Assembly (NCBI RefSeq): GCF_963921235.1
Contig: NC_086097.1
Coordinates: 44,642,001-44,706,000, forward strand
DNA: 64,000 nucleotides
Source of the DNA: Mobula hypostoma
Lineage: Eukaryota
Reading direction: 5' to 3'
A program made the position numbers and the translations under genes. Below, piece after piece: positions 3,608-54,701 of the stretch. Below the pieces are notes generated by a model, which did not search any database, was not told the DNA's origin, and saw nothing but the letters and a program-made list of their open reading frames with translations. How positions within the stretch are numbered: position 1 is the stretch's first letter; each line of letters begins with the position of its first letter.

Positions 3608-4879
3608 AATTACATTACTAACCAGCAACTGGGAGGTCTGCAGTAAGATTTGATGACCAGTTTGAATTCCACCGTGACAGCTGTGAAAATCAAATTCAGT
3701 TAGTTTAATAATCTGAAGCAAAAGGTCAGAATGAAGAAATGTATGTACAACTAGTTAACTATGTTTTTTTTAAATTGAAGTTATATTCAGCCCTTAACCT
3801 TGCTAAGATCTCCTACTGAGTATCTGTGAATGTGAGAACTGTCCCTCAGATAAGCAACAGACCCAGAATCACAACTTTCTACCAACATATACAGACTGCA
3901 TCATTTACATTACACTTATCTGCAAGATAAGCCACACAAAAAGGGAATGAAGTCAAACAGGACAATTTCCAGTGACCTCAATATTGACCAAAAAATACCA
4001 TGAAATCTTAGGGCATCAATTCAAAATACAAGTGGATCTATTTTCAATCAGTTGATAAACTAATACTCAATGTTGTAGGCTTCAAAGTAGTACTGAGAAT
4101 CAAGGACACAATATTTACTTTGCATGCGGAGCTTTCACATCCTTCACTTAGTCATTTAGTAGAACAGCCACATGGACCTATGGTAAAGGGTGAGGGAAGA
4201 GAGCTGGGGGTGAAATAACACTTCCCACCAACTTACCTTACAGAATGCATTCATCCCAGAACTTCAGCTTCAACTTCATTACTATATCCAACACCTTAGC
4301 TCACTAAACAGTTGCTGTGGAAGCATGTTACTGAAGGTCAGAATCCTAAAGGTCTCAACCAGACAGAACGACGGGTGTGCCTACACCTCAAGGGTCATTA
4401 TAAATCAACAGATTGCCACCGTTTCTTGGGAACATTTAGGAATGGCCAAATACTGGGCTCATGAACAAAGTCCACATCACATGAATGAACTAAAATCTCA
4501 AATTACTAACAGACTGATTTGTGCAATTTGGCAAGGAAATTGCACGTTTAACAATAACCAAAATACTCACTTTATTATCCCCTATGTTTTCACAAACTAC
4601 CCTCCAAATTATTTCAACACCAATGTGCAACAGTTCCTGTTTGAAACGTCTCCAAATTTTTCAAATAATCATCTACAAACGGAAGCAATTTACAGTAGGT
4701 GCCTACAGTTGCTTAAAAACAATGTAGATTTATATGGCATGTTAAAAAAAAATTCAGGCTGCCCCTCTGTCAGTTATCCTGCATCACCTTTATGTAGTGC
4801 CTATGACATAATTAAGACATTATACATTCAGCAGAAAAAAAAATGCATTAAATATCTAATACAAAACTCCTCTGAAAAG

Positions 4880-6143
4880 TTAAAAACAGAAAAAAGATTT
4901 ATTTCCAAAGTCAGCCTACAGTACTTACAATTTAAACTAAACAGAGACTAATACTCCATTGCATCAAGGGTCACACATCCTTATCATTCTGAATATAGTT
5001 ACTTGTGTTTGGGAATTTGAAAAGACCACCAAATTACCATTTACAGCAACATAGGAAAGCTCAGAAAGATTATAATGGAGTTGCACAGGAATTGATCATC
5101 TCTTTTAGTGTTCTTTTATATAAATCTTATTATAGGTTCACTCTGTTTTTGTCTTACTCAATGCTCATGCTGGATTTAAAGCAGTTAGGAGAATCATAAT
5201 GCTCTGCAAATCACTTTCTAACAAGTGCTTGCTTCAGGACCACACTTTATTGTTGGCCTTTATCTAATTAGTACATGGGACGTACATTGTAACAGGTGTT
5301 AATAAAAGGTCAGTGCCTGCACAATACATTCTACTAATGGAACCGAGCATTGCTTTTTTGCATAACACAACTGAAATAGGCTCTAATAGAAATTACATTA
5401 GACTTTAGCATCCGGCAGTACATACCAAAAAAAAACTGACTAAAACAGGTTTTAAATTGATTAACACCATTGAATCACTGTACTATAATTTTGATACTAC
5501 ATGATTTCATTACAGTTATACGATACAATTATACAAAATGTGTTAACATCAAAGAATATAACCAAATTAAGATAGCAAACCAAAAACTCTCAAAACTTTA
5601 TACAGGAAATAACTCTGAAATATGCATGTAGTACAGTTACTGCCAATTCTATGTTTTTTTAAAAAGGAACTATTACAAGCAAAAAAAAATTAAATTCAAA
5701 AAAAAAATCACATAGCATCTGCATTACTAGCATATCCAAATGAGTGTACAATATGCACACCTGGAAAATACAAAATTAAAAATGTGAATTGCTCCAAGCA
5801 CTGGGAAAGTGTCATATTTATATGAATGCTGAAAGTCCAATTTCTAGCATTGTCAGGTAAAGAACTGACTTTTGATAAATGCAAGTTCATCAGGGCTTTT
5901 ATGGCCCCAGAGTAATGTGTTCATTAGAAAACACCAAGGCATTATTGAAACAGGAATACAGGACAAAAACAGAAGAGCATCCTAGCATCATCTCCAACCT
6001 TGTGACTACTTTATCAAAACAAGTCTTTGTTTTTGTTATTTAAAATTCTTCTCTAGAAATATACAAAGGGAAGGTCAACATTATGCCCAAATGTGGTCAT
6101 ATAATGCCCTGCTAAGGACTAGGTGCTTCCCTCCTGGAGAAAT
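4880..6143 (-). other. YY1: Probable YY1 3' UTR with candidate poly(A) signals
   Basis: AT-rich stretch without recognisable transposons downstream of the stop; AATAAA on the minus strand at 5246-5251 and 4898-4903; true end not determinable. Confidence 0.55.
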
Positions 6144-6353
<210 letters not shown>

Positions 6354-6994
6354 TTATCAGAGTAGCCATAGTTCACATAACACAAAACAAACAAAATATT
6401 ACTTCTACCCTCTAAGCTTTATGCAAAATAAATTAAGTCTTGAGCCTTTCATGGATTGAATGCAAAGAAAGTTTTTAGCAATCTATATCTGAAAATTATT
6501 TTAATCTGATGTGATTTAAGTATTTCTCACCCTAGGATCTTACTGCTTGAAGAGCAAGGGTAATGAATTAAGTGAAATTCTGTTTTAACACTGTATATTC
6601 ATACTTAACAGATCACAGAACTGCCTGTACCAATTGCTTTTGAGATGCTTAGAAAGATGGAATTTTTGCCTATTATTCCATTGGGTCCAAACACAAGCCT
6701 CTTAAGATTAAAGAAAATACTGCAGCATCCAGCATCAGTTCCATCAATTTACCTGTATGTAATCAGTTACTTTACATAATCAATTCACTGATACTGTCAT
6801 CAGATTTACTACCTCAAGGCAAACGCCAACACTTCTAGAAGGAAAACTGCAATGAAGGTTCACCCAGAAAATAACAGAGAAAAAGTAGAACTCGCTTTAC
6901 CAGATTACCAACTAGATTTTTACAACTGTATTCTGTTACACAAGGGAAAATTTCTGGGAGCTTTCCGATAAATGAACAGAATCTCTGTTTGAAG

Positions 6995-7355
6995 TCACAA
7001 ACAAGAGAAAATCTGCAGGTGTTGGAAATCCGAGCAACACACACAAAATGCTGAAGGAACTTAGCAGGCCAGGCAGTATCTATGGAAAATAGTACAGCTG
7101 ATATTTCAGACCTGCCCAAAACATTGACTGTAGGTAAGACTGTAGAGGAAAGTTTTTCCACACAGAGTGGTGGGTGCGTGGAATGCACTGCCGGCAAAGG
7201 TGGTAGAGGCAGACATAATAGGATCTTTTAAGAGATTCTTAGATAGGTTCATGGAGCTTAGAAAAATATAGGGCTAGGCAGTAGGGAAATTCTAGGCAGT
7301 TTCTAGAATAGGTTACATGGTTGGCACAACATTGTGCTGTAGATTACTATGTTTC
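6995..7355 (+). mobile_element. Penelope-derived terminal fragment plus CR1 3' fragment in YY1 intron 4
   Basis: acaaacaagagaaaatctgcag...caacacacacaaaatgctg matches 42849 onward; followed by the cagagtggtgggtgcgtggaatgcactgcc CR1 end. Confidence 0.6.
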
Positions 7356-7378
7356 TATATATTTAAATTTGAGGACTA

Positions 7379-7573
<195 letters not shown>

Positions 7574-10093
7574 CTAGGAAAATATTAAAATATTATGCTC
7601 ATCTTACTTTACAACAAATAAAAGCATGAATAACTATGGAATCTATTCAAACTTCCATACTTAGACTAATGGAAAATAGGCATAGATGAAAGATTAAAAA
7701 AAGCAGTCATTCTCTAATACACTAAATATCCATTGCCCAACAGGTAACTTAATTGACTACTAAGCTATATTTAAAATACCATAATGATCAAGTTTACATT
7801 GCTCTTTTAATTTTTAAGCAAAAAGGATACAAACTAAAAGATCTTTCAATTACTAAAAGATGTACAAATGTTTAAAGGGAAAAAATTTTTGAACTAATGT
7901 CAAACATTTATTTATGTTAATTATGAAAAAGGCTTTGAATGGATCAGTAAATAATTGCATTTTTTAAAATGATTCAAAAGGAATTTCTTAAATGCCTGAT
8001 ATGGGCACACTGCTTAAAGAGGCCAAGTATGAAGAACAGCTCCAACTGGATTTCACTACATTTCACCTCATTCACATTAATGGTGAGCTAGAGAGCAATG
8101 TAGAATGAATAAACCACTCAACATAGCTAATCAGTTTCATTAAAAATATCTCAAAAATATCAAATCATTATCAAATCACACTTCACAAAAGATTCTCAAC
8201 GTGGATTTCCAGATTCATTTTGATATTATTTTGTTGCCAGTTTCCTTTATAAATTCTAAAGACACTCTCCATGCAAGTGGGATTACAGAAATGCAAAGAT
8301 AGAAAATGATGGACTCTCAGGAGGTCAAGTGGCATCAGTGCAGAGACAACCAGAATCAATGCTCCAGGTCAAGGATCTTTGATCAAAATTAGAATGAGTA
8401 TGCAAATGTTTTCTCATGGCAGAGTTATTTCTATAAAGAGGGGATATGTAAGGTGGGGGGGGGGGCACTGTTAAAATGCCCGTGACAGACTGCAAACTAA
8501 AACTATCAAGTATACAACAGTGCAATTTGGAAATAACATGCTCATTACATCATGATTTTGGATTGATCATACCATATCCCCCATGGTGAATATTAGGCAG
8601 AAATAAAGTTTAAGCTGCTAATTCAGCTATTTAAATAATGCATGTTGAATTTGTCCCCAGAATCCATGTTTTTTCAAAAAGAAAAATAGCAGGTTATTGA
8701 AGTGAAAGAAAATTAAAATAGAGCTGTGCCACTGGAGGACAGGACTGACTGGCTACCTAAAATTGTTAACAGATTTGTTCCTGGGGCTTCAGAATACTTA
8801 GATGAAAGTGCAATTTCTCAAGTTTACTTTGATCATCATTCGAAGCCAAGAGAAAGGAAGAAGGCGGAATGAGAGGGTGTGGAAAACTGAAGTATTCGGA
8901 AGCAGACTGAACAGACATGTTCTACAATATGGTCAGCCAGACTGCATTTGGATTTTTTAAGATCCATAGGAGACTGAGTACTGCATGCCATACACCACAT
9001 TGGAAAAGTTGCAAGTGAACTGTTGTTTCACCTGGAAGGACTGTTTGTGTCCTTGGCAGAAATGAGTTAAAAAGCAGGTTCACAGGAAAATGCCTTGAAG
9101 AGGATATAGAATAGACCATGTAATTCTGAAAATAAACTTTCATTCAGAATGGAATACACATCAAGTAATGGAAATCCCTCTGAAAATGGTGGAAATTAGG
9201 GAGGATAATCTGTGGAATGTGAAAACTTGAGAGGTAGAAAATGATGAAAGGATCTTTTCCATATTCTGTCAGAGGGAGAGGAGTGGAAATAGAAGAGTGG
9301 GAAAGTTAGGACAGAGCCAAGAGCCCTGTGTCAAGTAAGATTGATAGAAAGCCATTTAAGGAAAAATGGAAGACATTTTTTAAAGACAATGATGCGGAAA
9401 GCCTCATCTTCAAAAGAGAAACTAACAGAAAAGAACAAGGACCTTACTGTCAAGATAGCCGTGGGACAATCATCACACAACATTCAATGATTATTTTCCC
9501 CAACAGTTAAACAATAGAAATCCACAAAAACTAGAAGGGCAGAACTTAGTAATGTAACTTATACAATTGTACTCTTATCCTAAACAAAAAAAATCTCAAA
9601 ATCCAATCAGTTTGATGTGACTCACAGGAGATTACAGAGGGTCATTACAGAAAGTTTATGAAATAGATTTCTCAGTGAAATTGCTTAACTGAAAGATTAT
9701 GTATTAAATGTATTAAAGCCCAATTGGGAACCATGACTGACAAGAGATTATTAGGTGCATAATCATGCATTATTTTGCCAATTGATCCTAATATTTAAAT
9801 ACTGACCATGGATCTGGCCAGAAATTCCTCAATCTTTTTTTCAGTAGCTAACTCAACGCTCTGGAATTCAGTACACCAATAGCCACCTATCAAACTGAGA
9901 AATTCCAATTGCCAACAAGATTGATCTAATAAATTAGTATACAACAATTAGATATCAATTCCTATTTACTCCACAGCGAACTGTTCAAAATCTTTAAACA
10001 GGAACTGGTTCAAATGAAATCAGTCAATTGAATAATCGTTTTGTAAAACAGGAACAGATTTTTATGCCAAGATCATTTTCAATTCAGTTATTA

Positions 10094-10276
<183 letters not shown>

Positions 10277-11301
10277 TCAGTTTCCATCAAAATATTGACT
10301 TTTCTGTATTTATAATTCATCTTTCTTTGCAACTAGAGCAGCAACATTTATGTAAAAGCCAATATAAAAAATTGTATGCTACCTGGGACGGTAGGCATTT
10401 AGCAATCTGCAACTAGGAGGTATCCCTCCACTTTAACAGAGCCCTTTATCAAAGCACCTCAATTAAAGCCTTGGGGGAAAACTTATAAAAGCACCCCAAG
10501 GTGCAACTATTCACCCTTATTTTATGCTCAGTTGTATTAATCACCATCCTTCTCATGAAAACACAGACCTATTACGTGATAAGAGGAATATTGTTTAAGT
10601 GAAGGGCAAAAATAAGATGTCTAAAATTGTGTCATTTATTGTACTTCTACAAGATTACAGCAGATAATTGTATTTATTTTGAATGCCCCATATTAGGAAG
10701 AAAAAGGAGTGCAGATTAAATAAACATTACCCAGGCTAACTGATTATCAGTAAGTTCAAAGCAAGTTTAAGATTATCTGGATAAATTACAATCAAACAGA
10801 TGTTTTCAGTTTAAAAAGTGTTAATGTAATTAAGTTATGAATAAATAGTGATAGACTATCTCCACTAATCACTGGAATGTTCAGAACACAGAAAAGTGAG
10901 GAATTAATGAAGTTTGCAAAGTAAATGTATGAAATGGCATGGATTAAGGATGTCTGGCTTGGTATTTTATTTCTAGGATCTACAGAATTTTGTCACTAAT
11001 TACTATTAAATTCAATGCTATACTTCTTTCTGTTCCACTCTCCAAAAGGATTTCTGTCCATCTCTGTAACTGTGTTAGCCTTTGAGAGCTTCTCATTCCC
11101 TTGTCTACAGAAGTTTCCGGCTTTAACTGAGTCCGTATGGATTTCAACAGAGATCCCTCCCTTCATAGTTCATATCTACCCACGATTACAGACATGTCAA
11201 AATTATCCAGTTGTCCTAATCACTGCTCTTGCTGCAACCCAAAATTCTTGTTCAATGTCACACATTTTGCTATCTCTACAACAGCACTGACTACTTCAAA
11301 G

Positions 11302-11398
11302 ATGACACTCACAACACGCTGGAGGAACTCAGCAGGTCGGGCCGCATCCGTGGAAATGATCAGTCAACGTTTCGGGCTGGAACCCTTCGTCAGGACTG
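11302..11398 (-). mobile_element. Short Penelope-derived insertion with 9-bp TSD
   Basis: Flanked by ACTTCAAAG at 11293-11301 and 11399-11407; CpGs retained; similar to the ends of the GIY-YIG element at 42849-43671. Confidence 0.8.
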
Positions 11399-11399
11399 A
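11360..11399 (-). ncRNA. Minimal type I hammerhead ribozyme motif (Penelope type)
   Basis: Minus strand reads TCAGTC-CTGACGA-A-GGGTTCCAGCCC-GAAA-C-GTT-GACTGA: 6-bp stem I, CUGANGA and GAAA core, stem II, loopless palindromic stem III, GUU cleavage triplet. Confidence 0.75.
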
Positions 11400-11810
11400 C
11401 TTCAAAGGTCCATAGTTCAAGCTTATTTTTCACTGCAGGTTTTCAGATTAACAAACCTAAACTTTTCTTTCAGACATTAAAGACTCCAAATTTCATCAGC
11501 TCTTGAATTCCAAAAACCTCTTCTTATCCTTCACTCGTCTCTGACCCCATTTCTCCCCACAGTCCTACCCCTAGCACCCATTCATCCATCTACACCAGCC
11601 TCATGGCACTTCTCCAAGCAACAGGAAATGTTCATATTTTGTGGCTGACAATTCTTTTCACCACCATTTGCACAGAAACAAATGTAAGCATTGGTAAAAC
11701 ATTACCATGTTATTAATAGTTACTTTCCATTCTTGAGGTGAATGTGATAATAATCTTCATTATATTATCAAACCAGTCCTTGTAGCAACAATCCTTACAC
11801 CCATTGCTCA

Positions 11811-11984
<174 letters not shown>

Positions 11985-13096
11985 TCAAAAATGACACAAG
12001 ATTTTAAAGATCATTTCACATTCTGACCAAGCAAAAAAAATGTTCATGGGGAAAAGTAGCTAACTACCTAATGCCAAAATTCCTCACCCGAAGTCAGATA
12101 ATGAAATTCAAGGACAACACCTACTAATAAATTCCCTGGATGGAAAATTGATACAGCATTAAATACACCAATAACCCCACAAATCACATTTGTTTGCAGG
12201 TTTTATTAATGATGGGATCAAATACTCTGTACACCAATGATTTGGTCCAACAAAAAACAGTAAAAAGCCTCAGCTGTTATGTACAATGGCAGAAACTTAG
12301 TCAGTGGGATTCTCCGCATTTATCAGGGCAGATCACTACCTTGTAAAGCAGCTAACATAATCAAAACCACTCCAATCACTGCCATTCTCTCTTCTCCCCC
12401 TCTCATCAGGTGGAAGATCTAAAACCCAGAGAATATAACACCCCTGTTAATGACAACCTCCACCCTGCAGTTGTAAGACCACTGGACAAGGTTTAAAGTT
12501 AAAAGTACATTATCGAAGTATACAGTATACAATCTTGAGATTCATCTTCCTGCAGACAGCCACAAAACAAAAACACCATAGAACCCAAAGTAAAACCCAA
12601 CACAAGACCAAATGCGAAAAAGGACACACATTGTGCAAACAACAGGAAGTGAACATATGGAACATTAAACATCAAACTGATCACTAAAGTGAGTCCATAG
12701 CCACGAGCCACCAGGGTGATTGAACCTTGCTTTGGTTACTGGCACCATCTTGCCGGAACAATCCTCTTGTATGATAAGATGGATTCAACCTTGTAATCTA
12801 CTCAGTCATGGCCTCAAAAATTGTCTGCCTGACCTGCACTTTCTCCGCAACTGCAACACTAGATACTACATTGATACCACTTTTCCCTTACACTGCCTTG
12901 AGGTACTTATGGGGTGAAATGATCTGAATGGATGGCATGCAGAGTCATGCAGCATGGAAACAGACCTTTAGTTCAATACTTCCATACTGACTGTGTTGCC
13001 AATGAGATAGCTCCATCTGCCCACATTTGGCCCAGTGCCTGCTACACCATTCCTAGCAATGGTTTTACTTACACAAAGCTTCTAAATGTTGAAGTG

Positions 13097-13262
13097 AAAG
13101 TTTGTACATTCTTTCCGTGTGTATATGGGGTTTCTCTGGTGCTCCAGTTTCCTCCCAATGTCCAAAAGTTTCAGTTAGTAGATAATTTTAAATTGTCCTG
13201 CAATTAGGCTGGCGTTAAATTGGTGGGTTGCTGGGCAGTGCAGCTTGGTGGGCCAGAAGGGC
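13097..13262 (+). mobile_element. SINE fragment (V-SINE-like)
   Basis: ggtttctctggtgctccagtttcctcccaatgtccaaa core. Confidence 0.6.
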
Positions 13263-13269
13263 AGATGGC

Positions 13270-14300
13270 TGCATTGATGAAGCTCCTAGCACCAATCTAC
13301 AGCACACCACTAAGCACAAGCCTCCAATCTGAGAAACAAATCTTCTCCATCTCCTGATTACTTCCAACTGAGCCAGTTATGAATCCAATCCACTGTTTTC
13401 CCATGCATGCCATGCAACCTAACCTTCCAGATCAGCTCACCATGAGACCTTGTCAAAGGCCTTGCTAAATTCCACATAGACAATGTCCACCACTCAATTC
13501 TCATCAACTCTCTTGACAAACTTCTCAAAGAACTTCAAGAGATCATTCTGATACTACTTCCCCCTACACAAAGCCATGGTGTGCACCAAATTAGAACCCT
13601 CTTCAAATGTATGTAGATCTTCCCCCCCCCCCCCCCGCCCCAATCTCCTTCAACAATTTACCAACCAATTCCTGGCTTATTTTTGCTGCCCTTTTTGAAC
13701 AATGGTATCACTCCTGAACCTAACTGTATCAGAGATGAAGTAAAAATCTCTGCAATTTATTCTAAAGCTTCTCATAAGGACCAAGAATGTACCAGGTCAG
13801 GCCCGTTGGACTGATCCACCTCAATTCATTTTAAAGCCACCAATACCTCCTTCCTGCCCGTTGCCCCCATTCATTAACTTCCATTATTTTTGCAACAATT
13901 AAGTCTGAAGAAATATTAAAAAGCATACCTCTAGCATCTCTTGGGATTTTGCTTCACCGTGCCTGACAAATTCTTCTCATATCAGCTTTTTGCCTAACGT
14001 CCGTTAAATGCACACCTATATTTTTGTAGTCATTAAGTTTACTAGTTCCCAACTGTTTATGCACAGTGTATGCTTCCCTCGTTCTTAATTAGATCCTTAA
14101 TCTCTTACCAGCCAGAGTTCTCAAGACCTGACAGCTGTGGCCTTCACCAGTCCAGTAACATGCACATCATGAAATCTTGATAATACACTTTTAAAGCTTC
14201 CCACTTGGGCAGATGCTTCTTTCCCTGCAAATAATTTTGCCCAATCAACCTCTGCAAATTCTCACCTAATGGCACCAAAATTGTTGCTCTGCCTCAGTTC
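13270..14300 (-). mobile_element. Decayed CR1 LINE RT region
   Basis: accttgtcaaaggccttgctaaattccacatagac (reverse VYVEFSKAFDKV) and caaagccatg motifs. Confidence 0.65.
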
Positions 14301-15382
14301 AGGACCTTTGCAATGCAAAATTTTTCACAGTACCTCAGTTCAAGTAAGCATAATAAACCAATTACCATTAATGCACAAAAATAAGTACCAAACTAAATTA
14401 CACTAAATTATTCTAAAGTCAATTAGACAGGGAATTCAAAAGCTGCAAGCTAAAAGAAAGGCCACACCCCTTACATTTTCAATGCAAATAGTATCACCAA
14501 CTCTCCATTATTAACTGTCAACATCTTACGGCCACAACTGACTAGAAATCCAATAAACTAGCAGGACAGGATGGATGCTTTCTGTTTTACCAAAAAAATT
14601 AACTTTCTGAAGGCATAGCTATTCGGGTAGATATATCGGCAGCAGTTCAATATCAAGTCTGTAACATTAAGTCTTGAAGCTTTGCTTTGTTTTAAATGTC
14701 ACAGATACTAAGTTTAAGTGTCAAACAAAAGTGTTCACAAATGATTAGTAGCAGTCACTAGTTAACCTGAAGTTTGCTCACAATGATGTTATGGACTTTT
14801 TTCCCCCCTACACTGCCTGACTGAATTATTTCCATCATTTTCTTTCAGGTTTCCAAAATCTACAATTTTTTTTTGTTTTTCATTTCCCTATATCTGAATT
14901 TGGTTGCAAACAAATGCCAGTTCTAGGAAGAATGTCTGGTATTTAATAACAGATGTCATCAAATATGCAGGGTAATCAATCACATGAAAAAGTTCAGACT
15001 CCAAATCAGGAATTAAAATGCACAATTTTTTTTATTTCAAACATTTTTAAGTGCAAAATTATCTGTACACTGGTTGGAGGTACAATAGGAAATAATATTC
15101 TTAAATTTATCACTAAAAGGAAACTAGGCCAAAATATAAAGCATTTCCTTTTGGCCAACCAAGCTGGTGAGAATGCCAAACTTGCAGACTCAAATGCACC
15201 AATCTTTCATTTACAAGGTATTTAGTGAAGCGTTAGGTTGTCGTTAACTCACTCGTTTTGGAGAACATGATGCTACAGAAGGTTGCAAAAGCACCATTTT
15301 GGATTTTTTCAACTCTAAGCACTTCAAATTATTGTAATTCTGGCATTGTAATTAAAGTGAGAAAACCATTCTAGCAATTGCT

Positions 15383-15598
15383 AACATGAGGAAATCTGCA
15401 AATGCTGGAATTTCAAGCAACACACATAAAAATTGCTGGTGAACGCAGCAGGCCAGGCAGCATCTATAGGAAGAGGTACAGTCGCTGTTTCGAGCCGAGA
15501 TCCTTCGTCAGGTCTCGACATAGGGTCTCAGCCCGAAACGTCGACTGTACTTCTTCCTATAGATGCTGCCTTCACCAGCAATTTTTATGTGTGTTGCT
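15383..15598. mobile_element. Palindromic Penelope-derived element with 12-bp flanking direct repeat
   Basis: Arms gcaacacacataaaaattgctggtgaa / ttcaccagcaatttttatgtgtgttgc; CTAGCAATTGCT at 15371-15382 and 15597-15608. Confidence 0.8.
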
Positions 15599-15949
15599 AG
15601 CAATTGCTGTAGCTACAAATCAACACCACTCATCAAAATTGAAGCTTCAGCAAATTTAATAAAACAGACTATCCTTACAGGATCTCCAAGCCCTACAATC
15701 TACACCACTATGGGAGATCTAAGTGACTTTCCATAACATGAAGCCATGTCAAGTTGAAAAAAAATGTTTTGCCGTCAAATTCCATTAAGAGCAAATTCCA
15801 TTGCCTGAACAGCCATAAGCCTGTACCTTCCTGTAGCAACAAAATTAAATGCACACCTCTCTCACATTCTGAACTAAAACAATACCTATGTAAACAAGTA
15901 TTCAGTTCATTGCATCAGTATTGCCAGCTAAATGTTTCACCTTTATAAC

Positions 15950-16285
15950 TCATCATTATGTGCAGTGTCATATGAGGTAGGCGATCACAGTCTTTTGACT
16001 AGATTGTTCTTGCGAAATTTTTCTCCAGAAGTGGTTTGCTATTGCTTTCTTCTGGGCAGTGTCTTTACAAGATGGGTGACTCCAGCCATTATCAATACCT
16101 TTCAGAGATTGCATGGCGTCAGTGGTCACTTAACTAGGACCTTGTGATTATGCACCAGCTGCTCCCTCTTCGCTGTGCATTTTATCACCAATTCTGGTAC
16201 ACCTTGTCCAAGAGTGACCTGCAGGCTAGCTAGCAGAGGGAAGGAGTTCCTTACATCTCCTTTAGTAAAGACACATCTCCACCCT
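15950..16285 (-). mobile_element. SINE-like element with RTE-type tail
   Basis: Reverse strand has agaagaaagcaatagcaaaccacttct (RTE/BovA-like motif) and ends in an ATGATGA tail. Confidence 0.5.
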
Positions 16286-17126
16286 TGCAGCTAGCTACCA
16301 CAGAATACCGTGCAATCATGTTATGGTAGAACTGAGTTTCTTGAAAACAGTTTGCGTCACAACTTTTCATAATACAACTACTCCCTGCCACCACTGATTC
16401 CATGCTGTAAGTGAAGGTGCACTGATAGGATGTTTTTCATTCAACAGTAATGTCCTCATGGTTAGCACTCACAAGTACACAGGCAAGGGAATTATAATTG
16501 TTTTAATAACAAGAAACAGATGTCACATTGTAGAAATATCAATAAAAGAGATTGCCTTGTCAGTTTCCAAAGTCTTCCACTTTGAACTAGCAGTCTGCAA
16601 CTGTTATCCTTGGTGAACGAGTTCAGTATTCTTTTTGAAATAATGTATTTTTTGAAAATTTTCAGGAGTGAATTTTTATTTCCCATCTCAATTTTTTTTG
16701 TTAGTGATCTGAACTCCTACATCTTAATGCAGAAGCACATTGTATTAACAATTATTTATTCAACATAACTGCACTGAATATGGAAATTTACACAAATGGT
16801 TTAGGTTGCAAATCTGCAATTAATAGCAAGAATTTTTTTTTATATAACTGCATACTTTTGGGGCAGAATCAGAACCAGTCAACTTGACTTTGGCAAGTAA
16901 ACACTAGAAAAATACAAAACGGAGTGATACTACCGTGCAGAAATTACAGTTCTAAAAATACTTTTGGATCAACGATTAAACTGTACCAATGGACATTATA
17001 AGTCAGAGCACTATCGCACAGAAACACGTCATTCAGCTCATCCAGCTTACACCAACCAAATCATCTAACTAGTCCCATCTTCCTCCAAACCCATCCTATC
17101 TCTGAACTTCTCTTAAAAATCCTCCC

Positions 17127-17799
17127 GGGAGGGGGGAGAAGATGGCGGCACAATGACAGTGCGCACGGCCACTTCGGTGATGAATATCTGTTACTGTCAA
17201 GTAGGGGATCGTGCACAATCCTGATTTGATGGAGACAGAGGTGAAAGCACAGCGGAACATCTGGAAAACTTCTGAAATGTCTGCTTTGCTACCGCTGCTA
17301 CTGTGTCATAACCGGAATCTCCGGAACTGAAGGCCCCGAAATCCTCGGCTTTGCATGTTTCAGCGGCCCAGGAGAGGTCGAAGGCGCTCGGCAGAGGATG
17401 GCACTCAGGAGGCTGTATCGGAGAGGCTGCTCAGAGTTTTCAGACAGATGGGCTCAGGGTCAGTTGCTTCCACGGTATCGGCAAGTTGACGGTGCCTGGA
17501 GGTTTATGGCAGGGAGTTTCTCCCCTTTGCCGCCTGCTATCGGGGACTTGGGAGTTGATCGACTCAGGACTTTGAGACTTTTTTTACTGTGCCTATGGTC
17601 TGTTCTTTATCAAATTACGGTATTGCTTTGCACTGCTGTAACTATATGTTATAATTATGTGGTTCTGTCAGTGTTAGTCTTTGGTCTGTCTTGTTTTCTG
17701 TGATATCACTCCAAAGAAACATTGTATCATTTCTTAATGCGTGTATGCATTTCTAAATGACAATAAAAGAGGACTGAGTGTTCTCATAATCTAATCTAA
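17127..17799 (+). mobile_element. About 670-bp non-coding retroposon-like element nested in a reverse CR1 fragment
   Basis: CpG-rich 5' part starting GGGAGGGGGGAGAAGATGGCGGC; (TAATC)n tail; its 3' end recurs at 50871-50950. Confidence 0.65.
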
Positions 17800-18299
17800 A
17801 AGAAATTACGATTGAACTTGCACTGGCACTTCCATTGGCAGCTCGCTGCACACTTATGACGTTGTGTGAAGTTCCCCTTCAATATTTCACCTTAAACCTA
17901 TAAGCTCACAACACGAGGGGAAAAGCCTGAATGCATTCACCTTATCTATAATCTTCATAATTGCATATACACCTCTAGAAGATTTCCCCTCACTATACTG
18001 CACTCCAGGAAATAAAGTCAAAACCTATTCAATCTTACTTTAAACTCAGTCCTGGTAACATCCTTGTATATGTTCCCTGCACTCTCTCAAGCTTATTGAC
18101 ATCTTTCCTGTAGGTAGGTGATCTGAATTACACACAATACTCTAAATCTGGCCTCCCAAATTTATTATACCACTTTAATATTATATCACAATGTCTTGAT
18201 GTGCAATGTGTCCAATGCTCTCCTTCAACCCTACCTGTGATGCCACTTTCAAGGAATTATGAACCTGTATTCCCAGATCCTTTTATTCCACTGCACACC

Positions 18300-19225
18300 T
18301 CACAGGCCCATCTTCGGCTGCTTCATCAATGACCTTCCTTCTGTCATAAGGTCAGAAGTGGGGATCACTGCACAATGTTCTGCACTATTCACAACTCCTC
18401 AGATAGTGAAGCAGTTCATACCCAAATACAGCAGGACTTGGAGAATATCCAGGCTTGGGCTGACAAGTATAACATACAAGCCACGCAATGACCATCTCCA
18501 ACAGGAGAGGCTTTAACCGTTGTCTCTTGACATTCAGTGGCATCACCATCACACAATCCCCTACTATCAACATCCTGGGAGTTACCATTGACAGGAAACT
18601 GAACTGGTCTAGCCATATAAACACCATGGCTACCAGAGCAGGTCAAAGGCTAGGAATCCTGTGGCATGTAACTCACCTCCTGACTCCCCAAAGCCCGTCC
18701 ACTATCTACAAGGCTCAGATCAGGAGTGTAATAGAATACTTGCCACTCACCTGGATGAGTGCACCTCCATCAACACTCAAGCAGCTTGACACTGTCTAGT
18801 ACAAGGCAGCCCACTTGATTGGTACCCCTTCCACAAGCACTCAATCCCTTCACCATTGATGAACAGTGGCAGTGGTGTGTACTATCTACAAGATGCACTG
18901 CAACAACACACCGAAGTTCCCAAGGCAACACCTTCTACGACCACTACCACCTAGAAGGACAAGAACAGCAGATACCTGGGAACACCACCTCCTGGAAATT
19001 CCCCTGCAAATCACTCACTGTCCTGTCTTGGAAACTTATCACCGTTCCATTGTTGCTGGGTCAAAATCATGGAATTCCCTCCCTAACACCACTGTGGGTA
19101 TACCTGCACCGCAGGGACTGCAGCAGTTCAAGCAAGCAGCTTATTACCACCTTCAAGGGCAACTAGGGAGGGGCAATAAATGCTGGCTTAGCTGGTGGTG
19201 CCCACATCCCATAAATGAATTAAAA
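18300..19225 (+). mobile_element. CR1/L2-group LINE 3' fragment
   Basis: INDLPS, ILGVTIDRKLNWSSHI, IYKAQIRSVIEY, WNSLP; similar pieces at 40150-40690 (+), 47610-48000 (-) and 49830-50250 (-). Confidence 0.75.
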
Positions 19226-19479
19226 AATACTGTGTACATCTTCCCCTCATTTACTCCCCCCCCAACAAATGCAACACCTCACACTTGTCTGCATTAAATT
19301 CCATCTACACTTTTTAAGCAGTTTTTCTGGGTGGTGAAGATCACACTACAAGCTTCAATAGCCTTTCCAACTGTCCACCAATGCCCCCAAACTCAGATCC
19401 CTAGAGTACACTACTAATCAAACATCTCTAGTCAGAGAGACAACCCTCTACCTCACCATCTGGCTTCTCCTACAAATCA

Positions 19480-21090
19480 ACTCCTGCCCAAGAAGTGATT
19501 TGGACTCACTCTAATTTGCCTACTGGAGCAAAAGGTCCACAGCAGATATATTTCATTTGCCCTTCACTCAACCCTGGAACATCTGGATGGCCAAGGTGCA
19601 TATATCAGAATGCCCTTATCAACTACAGTTCGACATTCAATACCATCATCTCAAAACTAATCATTAAGCTTCAAGACCTTGGCCTCAAAACATCCTTATA
19701 CAATCGGACACACATCAAAGTTGCTGGTGAACGCAGCAGGCCAGGCAGCATCTATAGGAAGAGGCGCAGTCGACGTTTCAGGCCGAGACCCTTCACCAGC
19801 AACTTTGATGTGTGTTGCTTGAATTTTCAGCATCTGCAGAATTCCTGTTGTTATACAATCGGATCCTCAATTTCCTCTCTCTTGCAAACCCCAGTCAGTT
19901 CGGATTGGCAACATCTCCTCCACGGTGTCCATCAGCACAGGCGCACCATAAGGTAGTGTGTTTACTCCCCTGCTCTACTCACTTTACACTTCTGACTGTG
20001 GTTAAACACAGCTCCAATGCCACATTCAAGCTTGCTGATGACACCACTGTCGAAGCCCAAATCAAAGATGGTGATAAATCAGCACACAGGAGGGAGACTG
20101 AAAATCTGGCTAAGTGGTGTGATCACAAGAACCACTTAATGTCAGCAAGACAAAGAAGCTGACATTATCTGATTTCAGGAGGAGGATCCAGAGGTCCATG
20201 AGCCAGTCCTCATTGGAGGATCAGATGTTGAGCAGGTCAGCAACTTTAAATTCCCCAGTATTATTATTTCGGAGGAAGCCCAGCACACAAATGCAATTAT
20301 GAAGAAAGCATGGCACATCTTTATTTCCTTTGGAGTCTTAGATTCAGCATGACACCTAGAACTTCCATAGATGTGCAGTGGTGAGGATATTGCAAGCTGC
20401 ATCACAGCCTAGCATGGAAACACCAGTGCCTGTGAACAGAACAATCCTACAAAAAAAAGTGGATATGGCCCAGTCCATCACAGGTAAAGCCCTCCCTACC
20501 ACTGAGCATATTTGCATGAGCATAATCATCAGCAACACCGAGCAATACCTGCACTGACATACTTAATTTATGTGATTTTTACATTTGCCATCAAGTCCAG
20601 TATGTCACCAATAGATGCTGAAGCAGCTTGGTTAAAGTCATTAACCCATGCTTTTTCAAGAAATCATTTTGTATTAATATACAAGAAACATCTTGAAGCT
20701 GCCCATCACGACTTATTTCAAGTTGATTAGATTCGTTCCTCATCACCAGTGTACTGAGTAACACTGAGGGTATGCTCGCTTCTTGCTGCGGCCATCAGGA
20801 AGGTAGTAGAGGAGCCTCGGGATTCCCACCACCAGGTTCAGGAACAGTTATTTACCCCTCAACCATCAGGCTCTTGAATCAAAGGGGATAACTTCACTCA
20901 CTCCATCACTGAAATGTTTCCACAACCTATGGACTAACTTTGACATTTTATCCCACGTTGTTGATATTTATTACTTACATTTTATTACTATTTCTTTCCT
21001 TTTGTATTCAGTCTGTTGACTTTTGCACACTAGTCAAATACCCAAGTTGACAGTCTTTCATTGATTTTATTATGGATATTATTCTATGAT
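19480..21090 (+). mobile_element. Rex1/Babar-like LINE fragment with two nested inserts
   Basis: INYSSTFNTII, KLADDTTV, (ACTTTGA) tail; interrupted at 19709-19850 and about 20520-20770. Confidence 0.75.
19709..19850. mobile_element. Penelope-derived partly palindromic insert with 13-bp TSD
   Basis: TTATACAATCGGA at 19696-19708 and 19851-19863; arms cacacatcaaagttgctggtgaa / ttcaccagcaactttgatgtgtg. Confidence 0.8.
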
Positions 21091-21873
21091 AGATTTAGAG
21101 TGTGCCTGCAAGAAAAAAGATCTCAGGGTGACTTATGTACTTTGAACTTTGTGTTCATAGATGTTCAGAAATCTGGAGGGGAAGGAGCTGTTTCCAAAAC
21201 ATTGAGTGTGCATTCTCAGGCTCCTATAACCCCTCCCTGACTGCAGCAAGAGGACATAATGTTCAAGATGGTGAGGGTCCTAAATAATGGCACATTTTTA
21301 ATATGTTCTCAATGTTGGGGAAGCTAGTGCCCATGATGGAGCTGGTTGAGTCTACAACACTCTGCAGTTTTTTTTCTGATCCTGCCCATGTGGTGAATTG
21401 TGGTGAACTATCAGAAGAAAATTTACAATGACCTTCAAGTGAGGATGGTGCCAAATCAAAATACTTCAATGGTTTAGTTATTCAGAATTAAGAACGGGTG
21501 AACATAAAATAATACTACCTGCCGGTGAAACTACAATGTTTTGAGCACTGCTTGAAAATACAAGCAGTATTAAAAGACTGGAGGATCGCAAAACTACTTC
21601 ACTGATGATGAGGAACAAAAAGTCGTGATGGTCAGCGTCAAGATGTTTCTTATATATTAATACAAAATGATTTCTCGAAAAAGCATGGGTTTCAGCACCT
21701 AGTGGTGACATACTAGACTTGATGGCAAAAGTAAAAATCACGTAAGTATGTCAGTGCAGACCTTAAACTATCTAAGAGGAAGTCAGATGGATGTGGTGAG
21801 CTATCTGAGGGAAATCTACAGTAGTGTTCATTTGAAGTTGGCAAGACCAAAATACTTTCATCGCTTTAAATTA

Positions 21874-23469
21874 CAAACCCCATTTCCAGAAAAGTTGGGA
21901 TATTTTCCAAAATGCAATAAACAAAAATCTGTGATATGTTAATTCACGTGAACCTTTATTTAACTGACAAAAGTACAAAGAAAAGATTTTCAGTAGTTTT
22001 ACTGACCAACTTAATTGTATTTTGTAAACATACACAAATTTAGAATTTGATGGCTGCAACACACTCAACAAAAGTTGGGACAGAGTTAAAATAAGATTGA
22101 AAAGTGCACAAAATATTCAAGTAACACCAGTTTGGAAGACTCCACCTTAAGCAGGCTAATTGGTAGCAGGTGAAGTATCATGACTGGGTATAAAAGTAGC
22201 GTCCAAAGGCTCAGTCTTTGCAAGCAAGGATGGGTCGTGGCTCACCCCTTTGTGCCAAAATTTGAAAGAGAATTGTTAGTCAGTTCAAAAGGAACATTTC
22301 TCAACGCAAGATTGCAGAGAATTTAGGTCTTTCAACATCTACAGTACATAATATTGTGAAAAGATTCAGAGAATTCAGAGACATCTCAGTGTGTAAAGGG
22401 CAAGGTCGGAAACCACTGTTGAATGCGCATGATCTTCGAGCCCTCAGGCGGCACTGCCTAAGAAACTGTCATGCTACTGTGAGAATTGTAGCCACCTGGG
22501 CTCGGGAGTACTTCGAAAAACCATTGTCACTCAACACAGTCCATATCTGCACCCAGAAGTGCAACTTGAAACTGTATTACGCAAGGAGGAAGCCGGACAT
22601 CAACTCTATGCAGAAACGCCGGCCAGTTCTCTGGGCCTGAGCTCATCTCAGATGGACCAAAAGACTGTGGAACTATGTGCTGTGGTCAGGTGAGTCCACA
22701 TTTCAGCTAGTTTTCGGAAAAAACGGGCGTTGAGTTCTCCGTGCCAAAGATGAAAACGACCATCCAGATTGTTATCAGCAAAAGGTGCAAAAGCCAGCAT
22801 CTGTTTGGGTATGAAGGTGCATCAGTGCCCACAGCATGGGTGAGTTGCATGTATGTGAAGGTACCATTGACTCTGAGGCGTATATTGGGATTTTAGAGAG
22901 ACATATGTTGCCATCAAGGCGACATCTCTTCCCGGGACGTCCATGCTTATTTCAGGACAATGCCAGATCACATTCTGCACGGGCTACAACAGCGTGACTT
23001 TGTAGAGACAGAGTGCATGTGCTTGACTGGCCTGCTGCCAGTCCAGATCTACCTCCTATTGGAAATGTATGGCGCATCATGAAGAGGAGAATCAGACAAC
23101 AGAGACCACAGACTGTTGAGCAGCTGAAGTCTTATATTAAGCAAGAATGGACAAAGTTTCCAATTGCAAGTCTACTACAATTAGTATCCTCAGTTCCAAA
23201 ATGATTAAAAAGTGTTACTAAAAGGAAAGGTGATGTAACACAATGGTAAACATGCCTCTGTCCCAACTTTTGTTGAGTGTGTTGCAGCCATCAAATTCTA
23301 AATTTGTGTATGTTTACCAAATACAATTAAGTTGGTCAGTAAAACTATTGAAAATCTTTTCTTTGTAGTTTTGTCAGTTAAATAAAGGTTCACGTGAATT
23401 AACATATCACAGATTTTTGTTTTTATTGCATTTTGGAAAATACCCCAACTTTTCTGGAAATGGGGTTTG
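21874..23469 (+). mobile_element. Full-length Tc1 transposon (IR/DR type), inactive
   Basis: TA on both sides (21872-73, 23470-71); about 210-bp inverted repeats beginning CAAACCCCATTTCCAGAAAAGTTGGG with an internal direct repeat; 1596 bp. Confidence 0.95.
22230..23249 (+). pseudogene. Tc1 transposase pseudogene
   Basis: MGRGSPL...GRKPLL...FQDNARSH...WPAASPDLPPIGNVW...KGDVTQW-TAA; several in-frame TGA stops; first Asp and the Glu of the triad appear changed to Gly (WSGE, PIGN). Confidence 0.9.
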
Positions 23470-23789
23470 TAAGAATGCAGGATCATAAAGGATGGATCAT
23501 GTTAACTTTTGCTGCCACAGATGTAAAAACCTCTAAGCCTATTTTGCTATTCAACCCCTTATGGAGGACAGTGGCAGTGTTCAAATTAGTAACTTTCCAA
23601 CACAATGCTGCAGAAACTGTCGTTGAATCATGCATCATTACATTGTTCATTTTAGTGTGGGATAAAGATTTAACCACTTTCAAATCCATATTGATTCAGG
23701 ACTGTAGAATTCCATTCCAAATAGTTACAGGAAGTGGGGACAGGCTCAGCACCACCTGTCCCATCATCTGAAAGTGATCTGCCAGTTTT

Positions 23790-24620
23790 CACCAACTTCA
23801 TCAAGACCTGTGTGGATTGAGTGCATGCCTTTGAGAGCATAACCAAATCAAAAGCTGCGGATTAACCATGAGATTCACAGTCTGCTGACTGCTACATCTG
23901 TGGAATTCAAAACCAGAGACCCAGAATTTTAAAGTACTGTAATCCAGGTATGATCTGTACAGAAAGAGTGAGAAAGCAATCCCAAGTGAAGTTAGAGAGG
24001 GAATCGGATGCACAGCAGCTCTGGCAGGGTTTGCAAGCCATTACCTCCTATGAGGCAAAACCCAACATCATCAATGGCCATGATGCTTTACTCCTAGGTG
24101 AGCTCATTGCCTTTTGTACATGCGTTGAAAAGGAGAATAAAAACAAAACCAATGCAATTCCCTGCAGCATCTGGCAATTATCATATCTGCCTCAGAGACT
24201 GGTGCCAGGACCTGATGATATACCTGATAGGGCACTGAAAACCTATGCCAACAAACTGGCATGTTCAAGGACATCTTCAAATTTTCTACTGCAGTCAGGT
24301 TCCACCTGCTTCAAAAGAGCATTAATTACACTAGTGTTACAAAACAGCCATAATCATTGCCCATTTGCACTTGCATCTACTGTGATAAAATGCTTTTGAG
24401 AGGTGGGTCATAGCTAGAATCAGTTCTTGCCTAGACAACTTGCAATCACACCAGCTCGCCTCTTGGCCTTGGAACAACTTGAAAACAGCAATACCTACAT
24501 CAGGCTGCTGTTAATTGATTACAGCACAGCACTCAACACCATGATCCCCTCAGTAAGTTTCAAAATCTGGGCCTCTGTACCTTCCTCATCAGAAAACCAG
24601 GCAGGACAGATCAAAAATAA
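23790..24620 (+). mobile_element. Rex1/Babar-like LINE fragment
   Basis: QLWQGLQAITSY, PGPDDIPDRALK, ALASTVIKCF, RLLLIDYSTALNTMIP. Confidence 0.75.
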
Positions 24621-42140: not shown

Positions 42141-42848
42141 TACTAATGCTAATACTGTACAATACAGCTTGAGGATAGGAAAATGGGTAGCTTTGAATCT
42201 CACTCCAAGGCAACACAAAAATCAAGGGTTCAAAGATACTCGCTTTCAAGACAATTATTAAACTGAAGCCTTTGATTGCCTTCTCAAGTAGATATAAAGT
42301 ATGCTATTGGTACAAAAGTTACAATATAAATACAAGTCTTCATTTCAGTTGGAATTGAACTGGATAGAAATAGAGAACAGGAAAGACAACCTGCAACCTG
42401 TTCTAGTAGCGCATTAATCAACAATTTGGCTTTAGTCAGACACTAATCAATAATGCACACAATGCTTTACTGTACAGGGCGGGGGGGAATTACAGAACAG
42501 AGCAGAGGAAGTGCTGGTCTGTATGTTCTATTGTTTGACCAAATGTTCTGTATGGTATTTAGCACTGTAGGTCACGAGAATCATTTAAGCACTAGAGGTA
42601 GAGATGGGCTGCTTACAGGTTATAGTGGGAAAGATTGGCAGCAAAAGATTATTGCTCCAGTTTGACAGTGAGTAAAAGCAGAAATTGCGATGAGGGAACA
42701 GTGAAGCTGCAGTCCTCTCCATCAGGGAGTTTATGGTGATTTCAGTGCACCAACAACACAGTGGATCTCTTGTAAATGGGAATTAACAATATCCCTTGTT
42801 AAAGCAGAACCTGAAGCTGGGGCTAAAAGGTGATTTGAATAGCTACAT

Positions 42849-43671
42849 CACAAACAAGAGAAAATCTACAGATGCTGGAAATCCGAGCAACACACACAAA
42901 ATGCCAGAGGAACTCCCTCCTGATACTTATCCTTGCAAGCGGAACAAGTGCTACACCTGCCCCTACACCTCCTCCCTCACTACCATTCAGGACCATACAG
43001 GGCCCTAAACAGTCCTTCCAGGTGAGGCAACATTTCACCTGTGAGTCTGTTTGGGTCATATACTGTGTTCGGTGCTCCCAGTGTGGCCTCCTGTATATCG
43101 GTGAGACCCGACGTAGATTGGGAGACTGCTTTGAGCACCTACGGACTGTCTGCCAGAAAAAGTGGGATCTCCCAGTGGCCATCCATTTTAATTCCATTTC
43201 CCATTCCCATTCCAATATGTCCACTGTTGTGATGTGGCCACTCTTAGGTTGGAGGAACAATACCTTGTATTCTTTTTGTGTAGTCTCCAACCTGATGGCA
43301 TGAACAGCGATTTCTCAAACTTAAAGTGATGCCCCCCACTCCCCCCACCTCCTTCACCATTCCCCATCCCCTTTTGCCTCTCTCACCTTATCTCTTTGCC
43401 TGCCCATTGCCTCCCTCTGGTGCCCCTCCCCCTTTCTTCCATGGCCATCTGTCTCCTTCACCAATCAACTTCCCAGCTCTTTACTTTATCTTTCCCCTCC
43501 AGGTTTCACTTATCACCTTATGTTTATCTTTTCCCTCCTCCCACCTTTTAAATCTGCTCCCTAGTTTTTTTGCTCCAGTCATGTCAAAGGTTTTGACCCA
43601 AAACATCAAATGTACTCTTTTCCTAGATGCTGCTTGGCCTGCTGAGTTCCTCCTGCATTTTGTGTGTGTTG
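42849..43671 (+). mobile_element. Penelope-like element fragment (GIY-YIG endonuclease) with inverted termini
   Basis: FTCESVWVIYCVRCSQCGLLYIGETRRRLGD; caacacacacaaaatg at the left, cattttgtgtgtgttg at the right. Confidence 0.9.
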
Positions 43672-53958: not shown

Positions 53959-54701
53959 CAAAGTATCCTGAGATCAAGTCACTCATGGGACCAGACCCCA
54001 ATCTGAAATGGATTGTGTTTGGAATGGTTGTTACACAGACCATTGCCTGCTACTTTGTGAAAGATTTGCCTTGGAAATGGATCGTCTTCTGGGCTTATGC
54101 TTTTGGAGGTGCTGTCAATCACTCGCTAACCCTCGCCATCCATGATATTTCTCACAATGTTGCATTTGGCAATAAGCTCGCAAAATGGAACCGACTGTTT
54201 GCAATATTTGCTAATCTCCCTGTTGGAATGCCTTATTCTGCATCGTTCAAGAAATACCACATAGATCATCATCGATACCTGGGAGGCGATGGCTTAGACG
54301 TTGATATTCCAACTGATATTGAGGGATGGCTCTTTTGCACTCCATGTCGCAAAATCATTTGGCTTATTCTCCAACCACTTTTTTATGCACTTCGGCCTCT
54401 TTATGTTAACCCTAAACCCATTACAAGACTGGAAGTATTAAATGCTGTGGTGCAGTTTGCATATGATTTTCTCATCTACTACCTGTGGGGTTTGAAGCCT
54501 ATAGTATACCTGATAGCTGGCTCATTCCTGTGTATGGGTATACATCCAATTTCCGGACATTTTATTGCTGAGCATTACATGTTCCTTAAAGGTCACGAGA
54601 CCTATTCGTATTACGGGCCTTTGAACTGGATAACCTTCAATGTTGGATACCATGTTGAACACCATGACTTCCCCAGCATTCCAGGCAGCAAGCTACCACT
54701 G
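53959..54701 (+). CDS. DEGS2: DEGS2 coding exon 2 (three histidine boxes); final exon not in window
   Basis: caacag acceptor, (A)[13 protein letters not shown]...; His boxes HDISH, HIDHH, HVEHH; CTG|GTAAGT donor; 743 bp. Confidence 0.95.

What the first reader, a model, noticed from the sequence alone, without database searches (positions are those of the whole stretch)
11293..11407. Core-intact minimal hammerhead ribozyme in the sense strand of YY1 intron 2
Seen: on the YY1-transcribed strand the sequence is TCAGTC CTGACGA A GGGTTCCAGCCC GAAA C GTT GACTGA. It has a perfect 6-bp stem I, both core strands and stem II. It lies in a 97-bp insert bounded by an exact 9-bp duplication (ACTTCAAAG) and keeps its CpGs, suggesting it is young. 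Known: Penelope-like elements carry minimal type I hammerheads whose stem III is a short palindrome and which cleave mainly as dimers; an extra A after CUGANGA is a tolerated natural variant. Inference: the YY1 pre-mRNA carries a potential self-cleaving motif. Stem III has no loop (AC|GU), so it could only fold by pairing with a second copy, making any cleavage dependent on transcript concentration or on trans-pairing with other repeat RNAs. It may equally be neutral.
Basis: partly seen in the sequence, partly recalled or inferred. Interest (0 to 1): 0.75.

Follow-up and report, generated by a model that had tools for sequence, protein, structure and literature searches.

The report
Jumping-gene hammerhead stub in YY1 intron
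A complete-looking small self-cutting-RNA motif does sit on the read strand of YY1 intron 2, but it is a 94-base stub of a Penelope-like jumping gene with hundreds of thousands of copies, is missing from the same site in three related species, and is likely an idle passenger, so the finding is ordinary.

Summary
The motif is real: a minimal type I hammerhead (11399-11360, minus strand) in YY1 intron 2, with the predicted cut between 11366 and 11365. It is the 3' terminal repeat of a Neptune-like Penelope element (reverse transcriptase plus GIY-YIG). A 1.6-Mb sample holds 359 family hits and 36 core-intact motifs, about 78,000 genome-wide. In 11 genes they face both ways about equally (14 sense, 16 antisense). 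The insert is shared with one relative about 1% diverged and absent from three relatives 4-5% diverged. YY1 exon 2 still splices to exon 3 in carriers. The empty site corrects the anatomy: 94 bp of element, not 97, and the 9-bp repeat is not a flush duplication. The monomer is predicted to fold with its core trapped, and only 2 of 126 young copies begin at the cut site. Papers report no cleavage by such monomers and weak or protein-dependent cleavage otherwise. Cleavage was not tested here. The scan found the same kind of intronic copy many times before, here and in other genomes. Verdict: new member of a known kind, likely neutral.

The parts
11360..11399 (-). Minimal type I hammerhead motif (stem I, CUGACGA, extra A, stem II, GAAAC-GUU, stem I); predicted cut between 11366 and 11365
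   Evidence: Sequence; structural scan; fold
11305..11398 (-). 94-bp stub of the terminal repeat (pLTR) of a Neptune-like Penelope element; starts at the foot of stem I and stops inside the 3' tail
   Evidence: 94-97% identity to 39 best genomic copies; 82-91% to the repeat just downstream of RT + GIY-YIG frames in L201, L203, L206, L209, L210; boundaries from empty-site alleles
11293..11304 (.). Host target sequence, present in the empty allele (two letters differ in organisms C and E); likely the intact copy of a 12-bp target-site duplication
   Evidence: joint 11304 to 11407; loose ends of X17, X19; family duplications 11-13 bp
11399..11407 (.). Second, shortened copy of the target sequence; its first base closes the sixth pair of stem I
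10218..11811 (-). YY1 intron 2 (1594 nt), GT-AG; spliced out in RNA-type runs of insert carriers
   Evidence: exon 2-exon 3 contigs in X9 and X10
11812..11979 (-). YY1 exon 2
42839..43670 (+). Another, decayed member of the same element group in the window: GIY-YIG-like frame followed by the same terminal repeat
   Evidence: no Pfam hit for this fragment alone

Best explanation
This is a short, recent insertion of the terminal repeat of a very abundant Penelope-like retrotransposon that carries the family's standard minimal hammerhead, and it likely sits in YY1 intron 2 as a neutral passenger that seldom or never cuts. Shown: the stub matches the repeat 190-270 nt downstream of RT + GIY-YIG reading frames; the insert is limited to two closely related species; intact motifs are common and not strand-biased in genes; the intron is spliced in carriers. 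Inferred: the element's enzyme nicked the intron, began reverse transcription inside the 3' tail, copied through the uncut hammerhead and stopped at its 5' foot, where many young copies stop, leaving a 12-bp duplication that lost 8 bp. Predicted: as a lone copy the RNA folds into a hairpin that traps the catalytic core. Cutting would need a second copy to supply stems I and III in trans, probably with help from the element's protein, within the short life of a 1.6-kb intron.
For: Parent element: (RT E 2e-5 and GIY-YIG E 6.5e-4 in L201; Cys linker of the Neptune/Nematis type). Abundance: 359 hits in 1.6 Mb, 0 in a reversed decoy; 36 core-intact motifs, 0 in a shuffle. No strand bias in 140 genic stretches: 14 sense vs 16 antisense intact (p 0.86), 171 vs 153 all copies (p 0.34). 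Absent in organisms C, D, E and present in A, B. The insert includes sequence on both sides of the cut site, so its RNA template was uncut or rejoined; 2 of 126 young copies start within 2 nt of the cut site, 44 start around the motif's 5' edge. Monomer: G5-G8 pairs with C15.2-U17, unpaired probability 0.02-0.18. Literature: a single min-HHR showed no cleavage and dimers low cleavage (PMC4209133); the anole element's hammerhead cut only with the element's protein, was not needed for insertion, and left no read ends at the site (PMC11167929).
Against: With only 30 intact genic motifs, only a strong strand bias is excluded. This copy is better formed than most: only 6 of 36 intact motifs keep G10.1-C11.1, and about 0.03 such sense copies are expected in a YY1-sized gene (0.23 by the looser scan). 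Folding energies ignore core tertiary contacts and disfavour a C17 relative just as much, so they do not prove inactivity. The insert is shared by two species, so it is not private to one.
Confidence: 0.87

Rival explanations
1. The motif cuts at a low rate in cells where the element is active, by pairing in trans with abundant element-derived RNA and with help from the element's protein, but this has no selected effect on YY1.
For: All core positions are present. A nested double-hammerhead can be drawn with its own kind or a C17 relative (-25.9 and -24.0 kcal/mol). Potential partners number in the tens of thousands. Protein-assisted cleavage is shown for the anole element (PMC11167929).
Against: The active dimer is predicted 6.5 kcal/mol less stable than two monomers and 11.6 less than the inactive dimer. 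No excess of copies begins at the cut site (2 of 126). No read ends at the site in anole RNA-seq. U17 is recalled as a slower cut site than C17; only lists GUU as cleavable.
Confidence: 0.09
2. The host has adopted the motif as a concentration-dependent brake on YY1 pre-mRNA, working like the CPEB3 intronic ribozyme.
For: Sense orientation, intact core and 6-7-bp stem I; junctions shared by two species. An intronic ribozyme can tune host mRNA output (PMC10919898, abstract).
Against: Absent from three relatives only 4-5% diverged. The divergence of 3 in 94 from the subfamily is what age alone predicts; 16 of the 29 closest copies are equally intact (these were picked for similarity). No strand bias in genes. 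No intact partner on the YY1 transcript.
Confidence: 0.03
3. The hammerhead look is coincidental, and the motif is only a hairpin at the end of a repeat.
For: No Rfam hammerhead model matched. No covariation above shuffles among 19 distinct copies.
Against: It matches every sequence feature given for Penelope min-HHRs, including the extra base after A9 (an A in 35 of 36 intact motifs), G10.1-C11.1 and the 15.2-16.2 palindrome, and it lies in the pLTR where such motifs are described.
Confidence: 0.01

Closest known systems
Minimal hammerheads (min-HHR) in the pLTRs of metazoan Penelope-like elements (Cervera and De la Pena 2014, PMC4209133; parts 1-2 of 4 read)
   Same: Type I layout, no loop 3, palindromic 15.2-16.2, one extra base between 9 and 10.1, G10.1-C11.1, located in a pLTR, mostly scattered single copies from truncated elements.
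   Different: Far more copies (about 78,000 core-intact by extrapolation, against about 4,000 in coelacanth and 9,000 in Xenopus); stem II is 4 bp; U17 is the majority state in this subfamily; cartilaginous fishes are not named in the parts read.
Poseidon element PAc of Anolis carolinensis (Frangieh et al. 2024, PMC11167929; main text read)
   Same: Hammerhead in the pLTR, 3' ends inside a short tail, uncut RNA used as template.
   Different: The parent here has the Cys linker of the Neptune/Nematis clades; its protein has not been assayed.
EN+ Penelope-like elements, Neptune/Nematis type (Craig et al. 2021, 10.1101/2021.04.23.441226; passages read)
   Same: RT followed by a CX2-5CxxC linker and a GIY-YIG domain with two cysteines between the motifs; inverted upstream copies (L203, L209); optional 30-40-bp tail.
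   Different: Clade not placed by a tree here.
Host intronic ribozymes: CPEB3 (PMC10919898, abstract) and the amniote intronic hammerheads (mentioned in PMC6765202, passage; names HH9/HH10 recalled)
   Same: Self-cleaving motif on the sense strand of an intron.
   Different: Those are recalled as single-copy, conserved across whole vertebrate groups and able to cut alone; this one is a lineage-limited repeat copy that lacks stem III.
Animal non-LTR retrozymes (10.64898/2026.07.22.740005; section 12 and passages read)
   Same: Short non-coding hammerhead-bearing derivatives of Penelope elements; reported in one chondrichthyan genome.
   Different: Retrozymes are tandem repeat units; this is a single truncated stub of a protein-coding element.

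Membership tests
PLE minimal hammerhead (min-HHR) | Conserved core CUGANGA and GAAA-N-N-U-H | tested here: met
   H17 = U
PLE minimal hammerhead (min-HHR) | Type I layout with helix I of 4-6 bp and a helix II hairpin | tested here: met
   6 Watson-Crick pairs plus one G-U in helix I; 4-bp helix II
PLE minimal hammerhead (min-HHR) | [quoted passage not shown] | tested here: met
   A at 11386; G11385-C11374; features from PMC4209133
PLE minimal hammerhead (min-HHR) | No loop 3; palindromic 15.2-16.2 | tested here: met
   AC|GU
PLE minimal hammerhead (min-HHR) | Lies in the pLTR of an RT + GIY-YIG element | tested here: met
   All 10 long-frame loci carry the repeat; in 9 of 10 it lies on the frame's strand just downstream. 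Pfam RT and GIY-YIG hits are significant but under the curated cut-offs
PLE minimal hammerhead (min-HHR) | Compensatory changes among family members | tested here: inconclusive
   19 distinct copies from one genome: 83.6% of cells paired, but no measure above shuffles; changes are one-sided, mostly CpG decay
PLE minimal hammerhead (min-HHR) | Self-cleavage as a dimer or with protein help | not testable with these tools
   Needs an in vitro assay
Rfam hammerhead families | Match to a covariance model | tested here: not met
   0 matches at gathering scores in the window; no hammerhead at E up to 5 in 10500-12200
Neptune/Nematis-type EN+ PLE (parent) | CX2-5CxxC linker between RT and GIY-YIG | tested here: met
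   Seen by eye in translations of L202, L203, L204, L205, L207, L208, L210; definition
Neptune/Nematis-type EN+ PLE (parent) | RT phylogeny places it in the clade | not tested
   No reference set at hand
Neptune/Nematis-type EN+ PLE (parent) | Direct pLTRs on both sides of a full-length frame | tested here: inconclusive
   The 10 loci fetched are 5'-truncated or have an inverted upstream copy; no full-length element was sought
Host-adopted intronic ribozyme | Conserved at the orthologous site across relatives | tested here: not met
   Absent in 3 of 4 other organisms laid
Host-adopted intronic ribozyme | Able to fold into the active form alone | tested here: not met
   No stem III; core predicted trapped; prediction only
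Non-LTR retrozyme | Tandem repeat units each with a hammerhead | tested here: not met
   Single stub; nearest family hits are over 4 kb away

The most novel reading that the evidence does not exclude
Taken together, the roughly 10 intact sense-strand hammerheads per megabase of gene in this genome form a latent cutting network: when the Penelope element wakes (germ line, embryo, stress), its RNA pairs with these intronic halves and its protein folds the pair, cutting host pre-mRNAs such as YY1 in trans. Retroelement activity would then be wired directly to host transcript output.
Probability: 0.04. Interest if true: 0.7.

Novelty: new member of a known kind. Interest (0 to 1): 0.1.

Why it matters
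As found, it matters little: it is one more copy of a described retroelement motif. Two by-products are useful. The empty-site alleles date the insertion and give an exact junction for a poorly understood class of element. The lack of strand bias in genes is indirect evidence that lone minimal hammerheads do not harm host transcripts. If trans-cleavage were shown, it would link retroelement activity to host mRNA levels on a genome-wide scale.

Tried and rejected
Rfam found no hammerhead at either threshold. Covariation among copies from this one genome was no better than shuffles. A peak of copy starts at the cut site, which would have been fossil evidence of cleavage, was not seen (2 of 126). 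Strand bias was not seen for intact motifs, all copies, or copies that keep the upstream pyrimidine tract (43 vs 43). The idea that U17 is this copy's own CpG decay is disfavoured: in the subfamily sample the site reads TG 7, CG 3, CA 0, other 2, so U17 likely came from the source element. A partner on the same transcript was looked for: the other minus-strand copies in YY1 (near 19790, 15510, 7080) each lack part of the core. No run is on record as RNA; the RNA-type runs are contigs and gave no cover of the motif itself, which is no evidence either way. The first dimer drawing was mis-specified and was redone. The Lunse et al. dimer paper is not held; it is cited only through PMC6765202. Searches for prior description: 'hammerhead ribozyme + YY1 + intron' gave 1 unrelated paper; 'hammerhead ribozyme, cartilaginous, retroelement' and 'Penelope, manta ray, genome, transposable elements' (the animal name was my guess from recall) listed no paper on this family among the 20 and 15 shown. 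A search for evidence on intron cleavage and splicing was seen as a listing only.

Full report
Observation. On the minus strand it has a 6-bp stem I (7 with a G-U pair), CUGACGA, an extra A, a 4-bp stem II, GAAAC-GUU and the closing strand, with the predicted cut between 11366 and 11365. The pattern never occurs in 100 shuffles of the window. YY1 runs on the minus strand with five exons; the zinc-finger exon matches YY1 structure 1ubd end to end. Intron 2 spans 11811-10218, so the motif is on the sense strand about 410 nt from the donor. Rfam has no matching model.

What it is. A genome search with the insert gave 516 candidates; 40 were scored, and apart from the insert itself they are 94-97% identical. 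The window holds 9 family hits, and each of the 29 other loci holds 1-4. A GIY-YIG-like frame just upstream of another copy in the window had 87,328 candidates genome-wide. I fetched 10 loci picked for long open frames. All 10 carry the repeat, and in 9 it lies on the frame's strand just past the frame's 3' part. L201 encodes reverse transcriptase (E 2e-5) and GIY-YIG (E 6.5e-4), both under Pfam's curated cut-offs. The Cys linker seen in the translations is the mark of the Neptune/Nematis clades (Craig et al., passages). The insert is therefore the terminal repeat (pLTR) of a Penelope-like element. That the host is a cartilaginous fish is my recall of this repeat, not a tool result.

How common. 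I fetched 160 stretches of 10 kb: 140 inside 11 multi-exon genes whose strand was taken from clustered CUB or spectrin exon hits and 20 at round-number positions. A profile found 359 hits (a few are split duplicates) and none in reversed sequence, or about 6-8 x 10^5 copies genome-wide. A structural scan found 36 core-intact minimal hammerheads and none in one block shuffle, about 78,000 genome-wide; one of the 36 is not of this family. Six of 36 keep G10.1-C11.1 as this copy does, about 13,000 (range 4,000-24,000). Fourteen hits belong to this copy's subfamily, about 30,000. In genes, intact motifs were 14 sense and 16 antisense (p 0.86), and all copies 171 and 153 (p 0.34, sense fraction 0.47-0.58). 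A gene the size of YY1 would hold an intact sense motif about 0.23 of the time by the loose scan and 0.03 by the strict one. Thirty motifs exclude only a strong bias.

Age and junction. Contigs of organism B (14 differences in 1459 bases) run into the insert from both sides. A 2062-base contig of organism D (69 in 1397) bridges the site without it, joining 11304 to 11407 with 4 other letters. Organisms C and E show the same empty junction as loose ends. So the insert is in 2 of 5 organisms, the two closest. The empty allele shows that 11302-11304 is host DNA and that the element part is 94 bp. Four of 48 non-inverted young copies have 11-13-bp flanking duplications, and all four start at the motif's 5' edge. 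The site therefore fits a 12-bp duplication that lost 8 bp from one copy before A and B split (inferred). The copy differs from its subfamily majority at 3 of 94 positions, two of them CpG losses outside the core. Sixteen of the 29 closest copies are equally intact (picked for similarity, so biased upward). U17 is the majority state of the subfamily (8 of 12; TG 7, CA 0) and likely came from the source element, whereas the older long copies have C17.

Would it cut? The lone RNA is predicted to pair G5-G8 with C15.2-U17, 2.4 kcal/mol below the open form. The active double hammerhead scores -25.9 kcal/mol against -32.4 for two monomers and -37.5 for an inactive dimer; a C17 relative behaves the same, and the model omits tertiary contacts. 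The other minus-strand copies inside YY1 each lack part of the core. The insert spans the cut site, so its template was uncut or rejoined. Among 126 young, non-duplicate copies (of 359; filtered for score, edge and length), 2 start at +26 to +30 around the cut site, 44 start between -20 and +12 around the motif's 5' edge (26 of these with an inverted copy directly upstream), 46 run further upstream and 34 start elsewhere. In runs guessed to be RNA, contigs join exon 2 to exon 3 in A, B and E alike; they do not cover the motif and cannot show ends.

Literature. Cervera and De la Pena (PMC4209133, parts 1-2 of 4) define min-HHRs in Penelope pLTRs, report thousands per genome as scattered single copies, no cleavage by a monomer and low cleavage by dimers. 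Frangieh et al. (PMC11167929, main text) show for an anole element that the hammerhead cuts only with the element's protein, is dispensable for insertion, and leaves no read ends at the site. Weinberg et al. (PMC6765202, passages) agree on low rates even as dimers. A 2026 preprint (section 12 and passages) finds retrozymes in one chondrichthyan; its supplements were not seen and may list this family. CPEB3 (PMC10919898, abstract) is the precedent for a host role. The searches listed no paper on this locus or this family.

Earlier scan notes report the same kind of intronic copy in other genes of this genome and in other genomes, the pile-up of starts at the motif's foot, and 12-14-bp duplications. 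I read them after my own counts, except the duplication length, which I then tested.

Verdict. Real motif, known kind, lineage-limited, likely neutral. Interest 0.1. The boldest reading left open, trans-cleavage of host pre-mRNAs when the element is active, has about a 4% chance.

Noticed in passing
L201:4500-4530, L207, L208, L004, L019 (5' edge of the hammerhead in long copies): In all 12 reference copies a pyrimidine-rich run ending in CAG or TAG falls inside the 5' strand of stem I, like a splice acceptor. PMC4209133 says the Drosophila Penelope intron ends at helix I. Young copies often start 3-4 nt before the core (11 of 131 before removing duplicates), but their upstream flanks are unrelated, so a shared spliced exon was not seen.
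   Followed up: partly
1.6-Mb sample, largest young subfamily (cluster 43): The largest young subfamily has G10.1-U11.1 as its majority (TG 31, CG 14, CA 1) and this copy's subfamily has U17; successful source elements seem to tolerate changes at positions usually kept in hammerheads.
   Followed up: partly
window 15441-15547: Head-to-head pair of family copies joined at the hammerhead inside YY1 intron 1; such inverted pairs make up 26 of 44 copies that start near the motif.
   Followed up: partly
window 53925-54737 (+): Long exon of a fatty-acid-desaturase-like gene (recalled as DEGS2, a usual YY1 neighbour); not checked against a database.
   Followed up: no
window 22266-22637 (+): Tc1/mariner-like transposase fragment in YY1 intron 1 (by eye).
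   Followed up: no
G000:C64:52,700,000-52,970,000: A long tandem array of near-identical CUB-domain exons, suggesting a highly repeated CUB protein gene.
   Followed up: no
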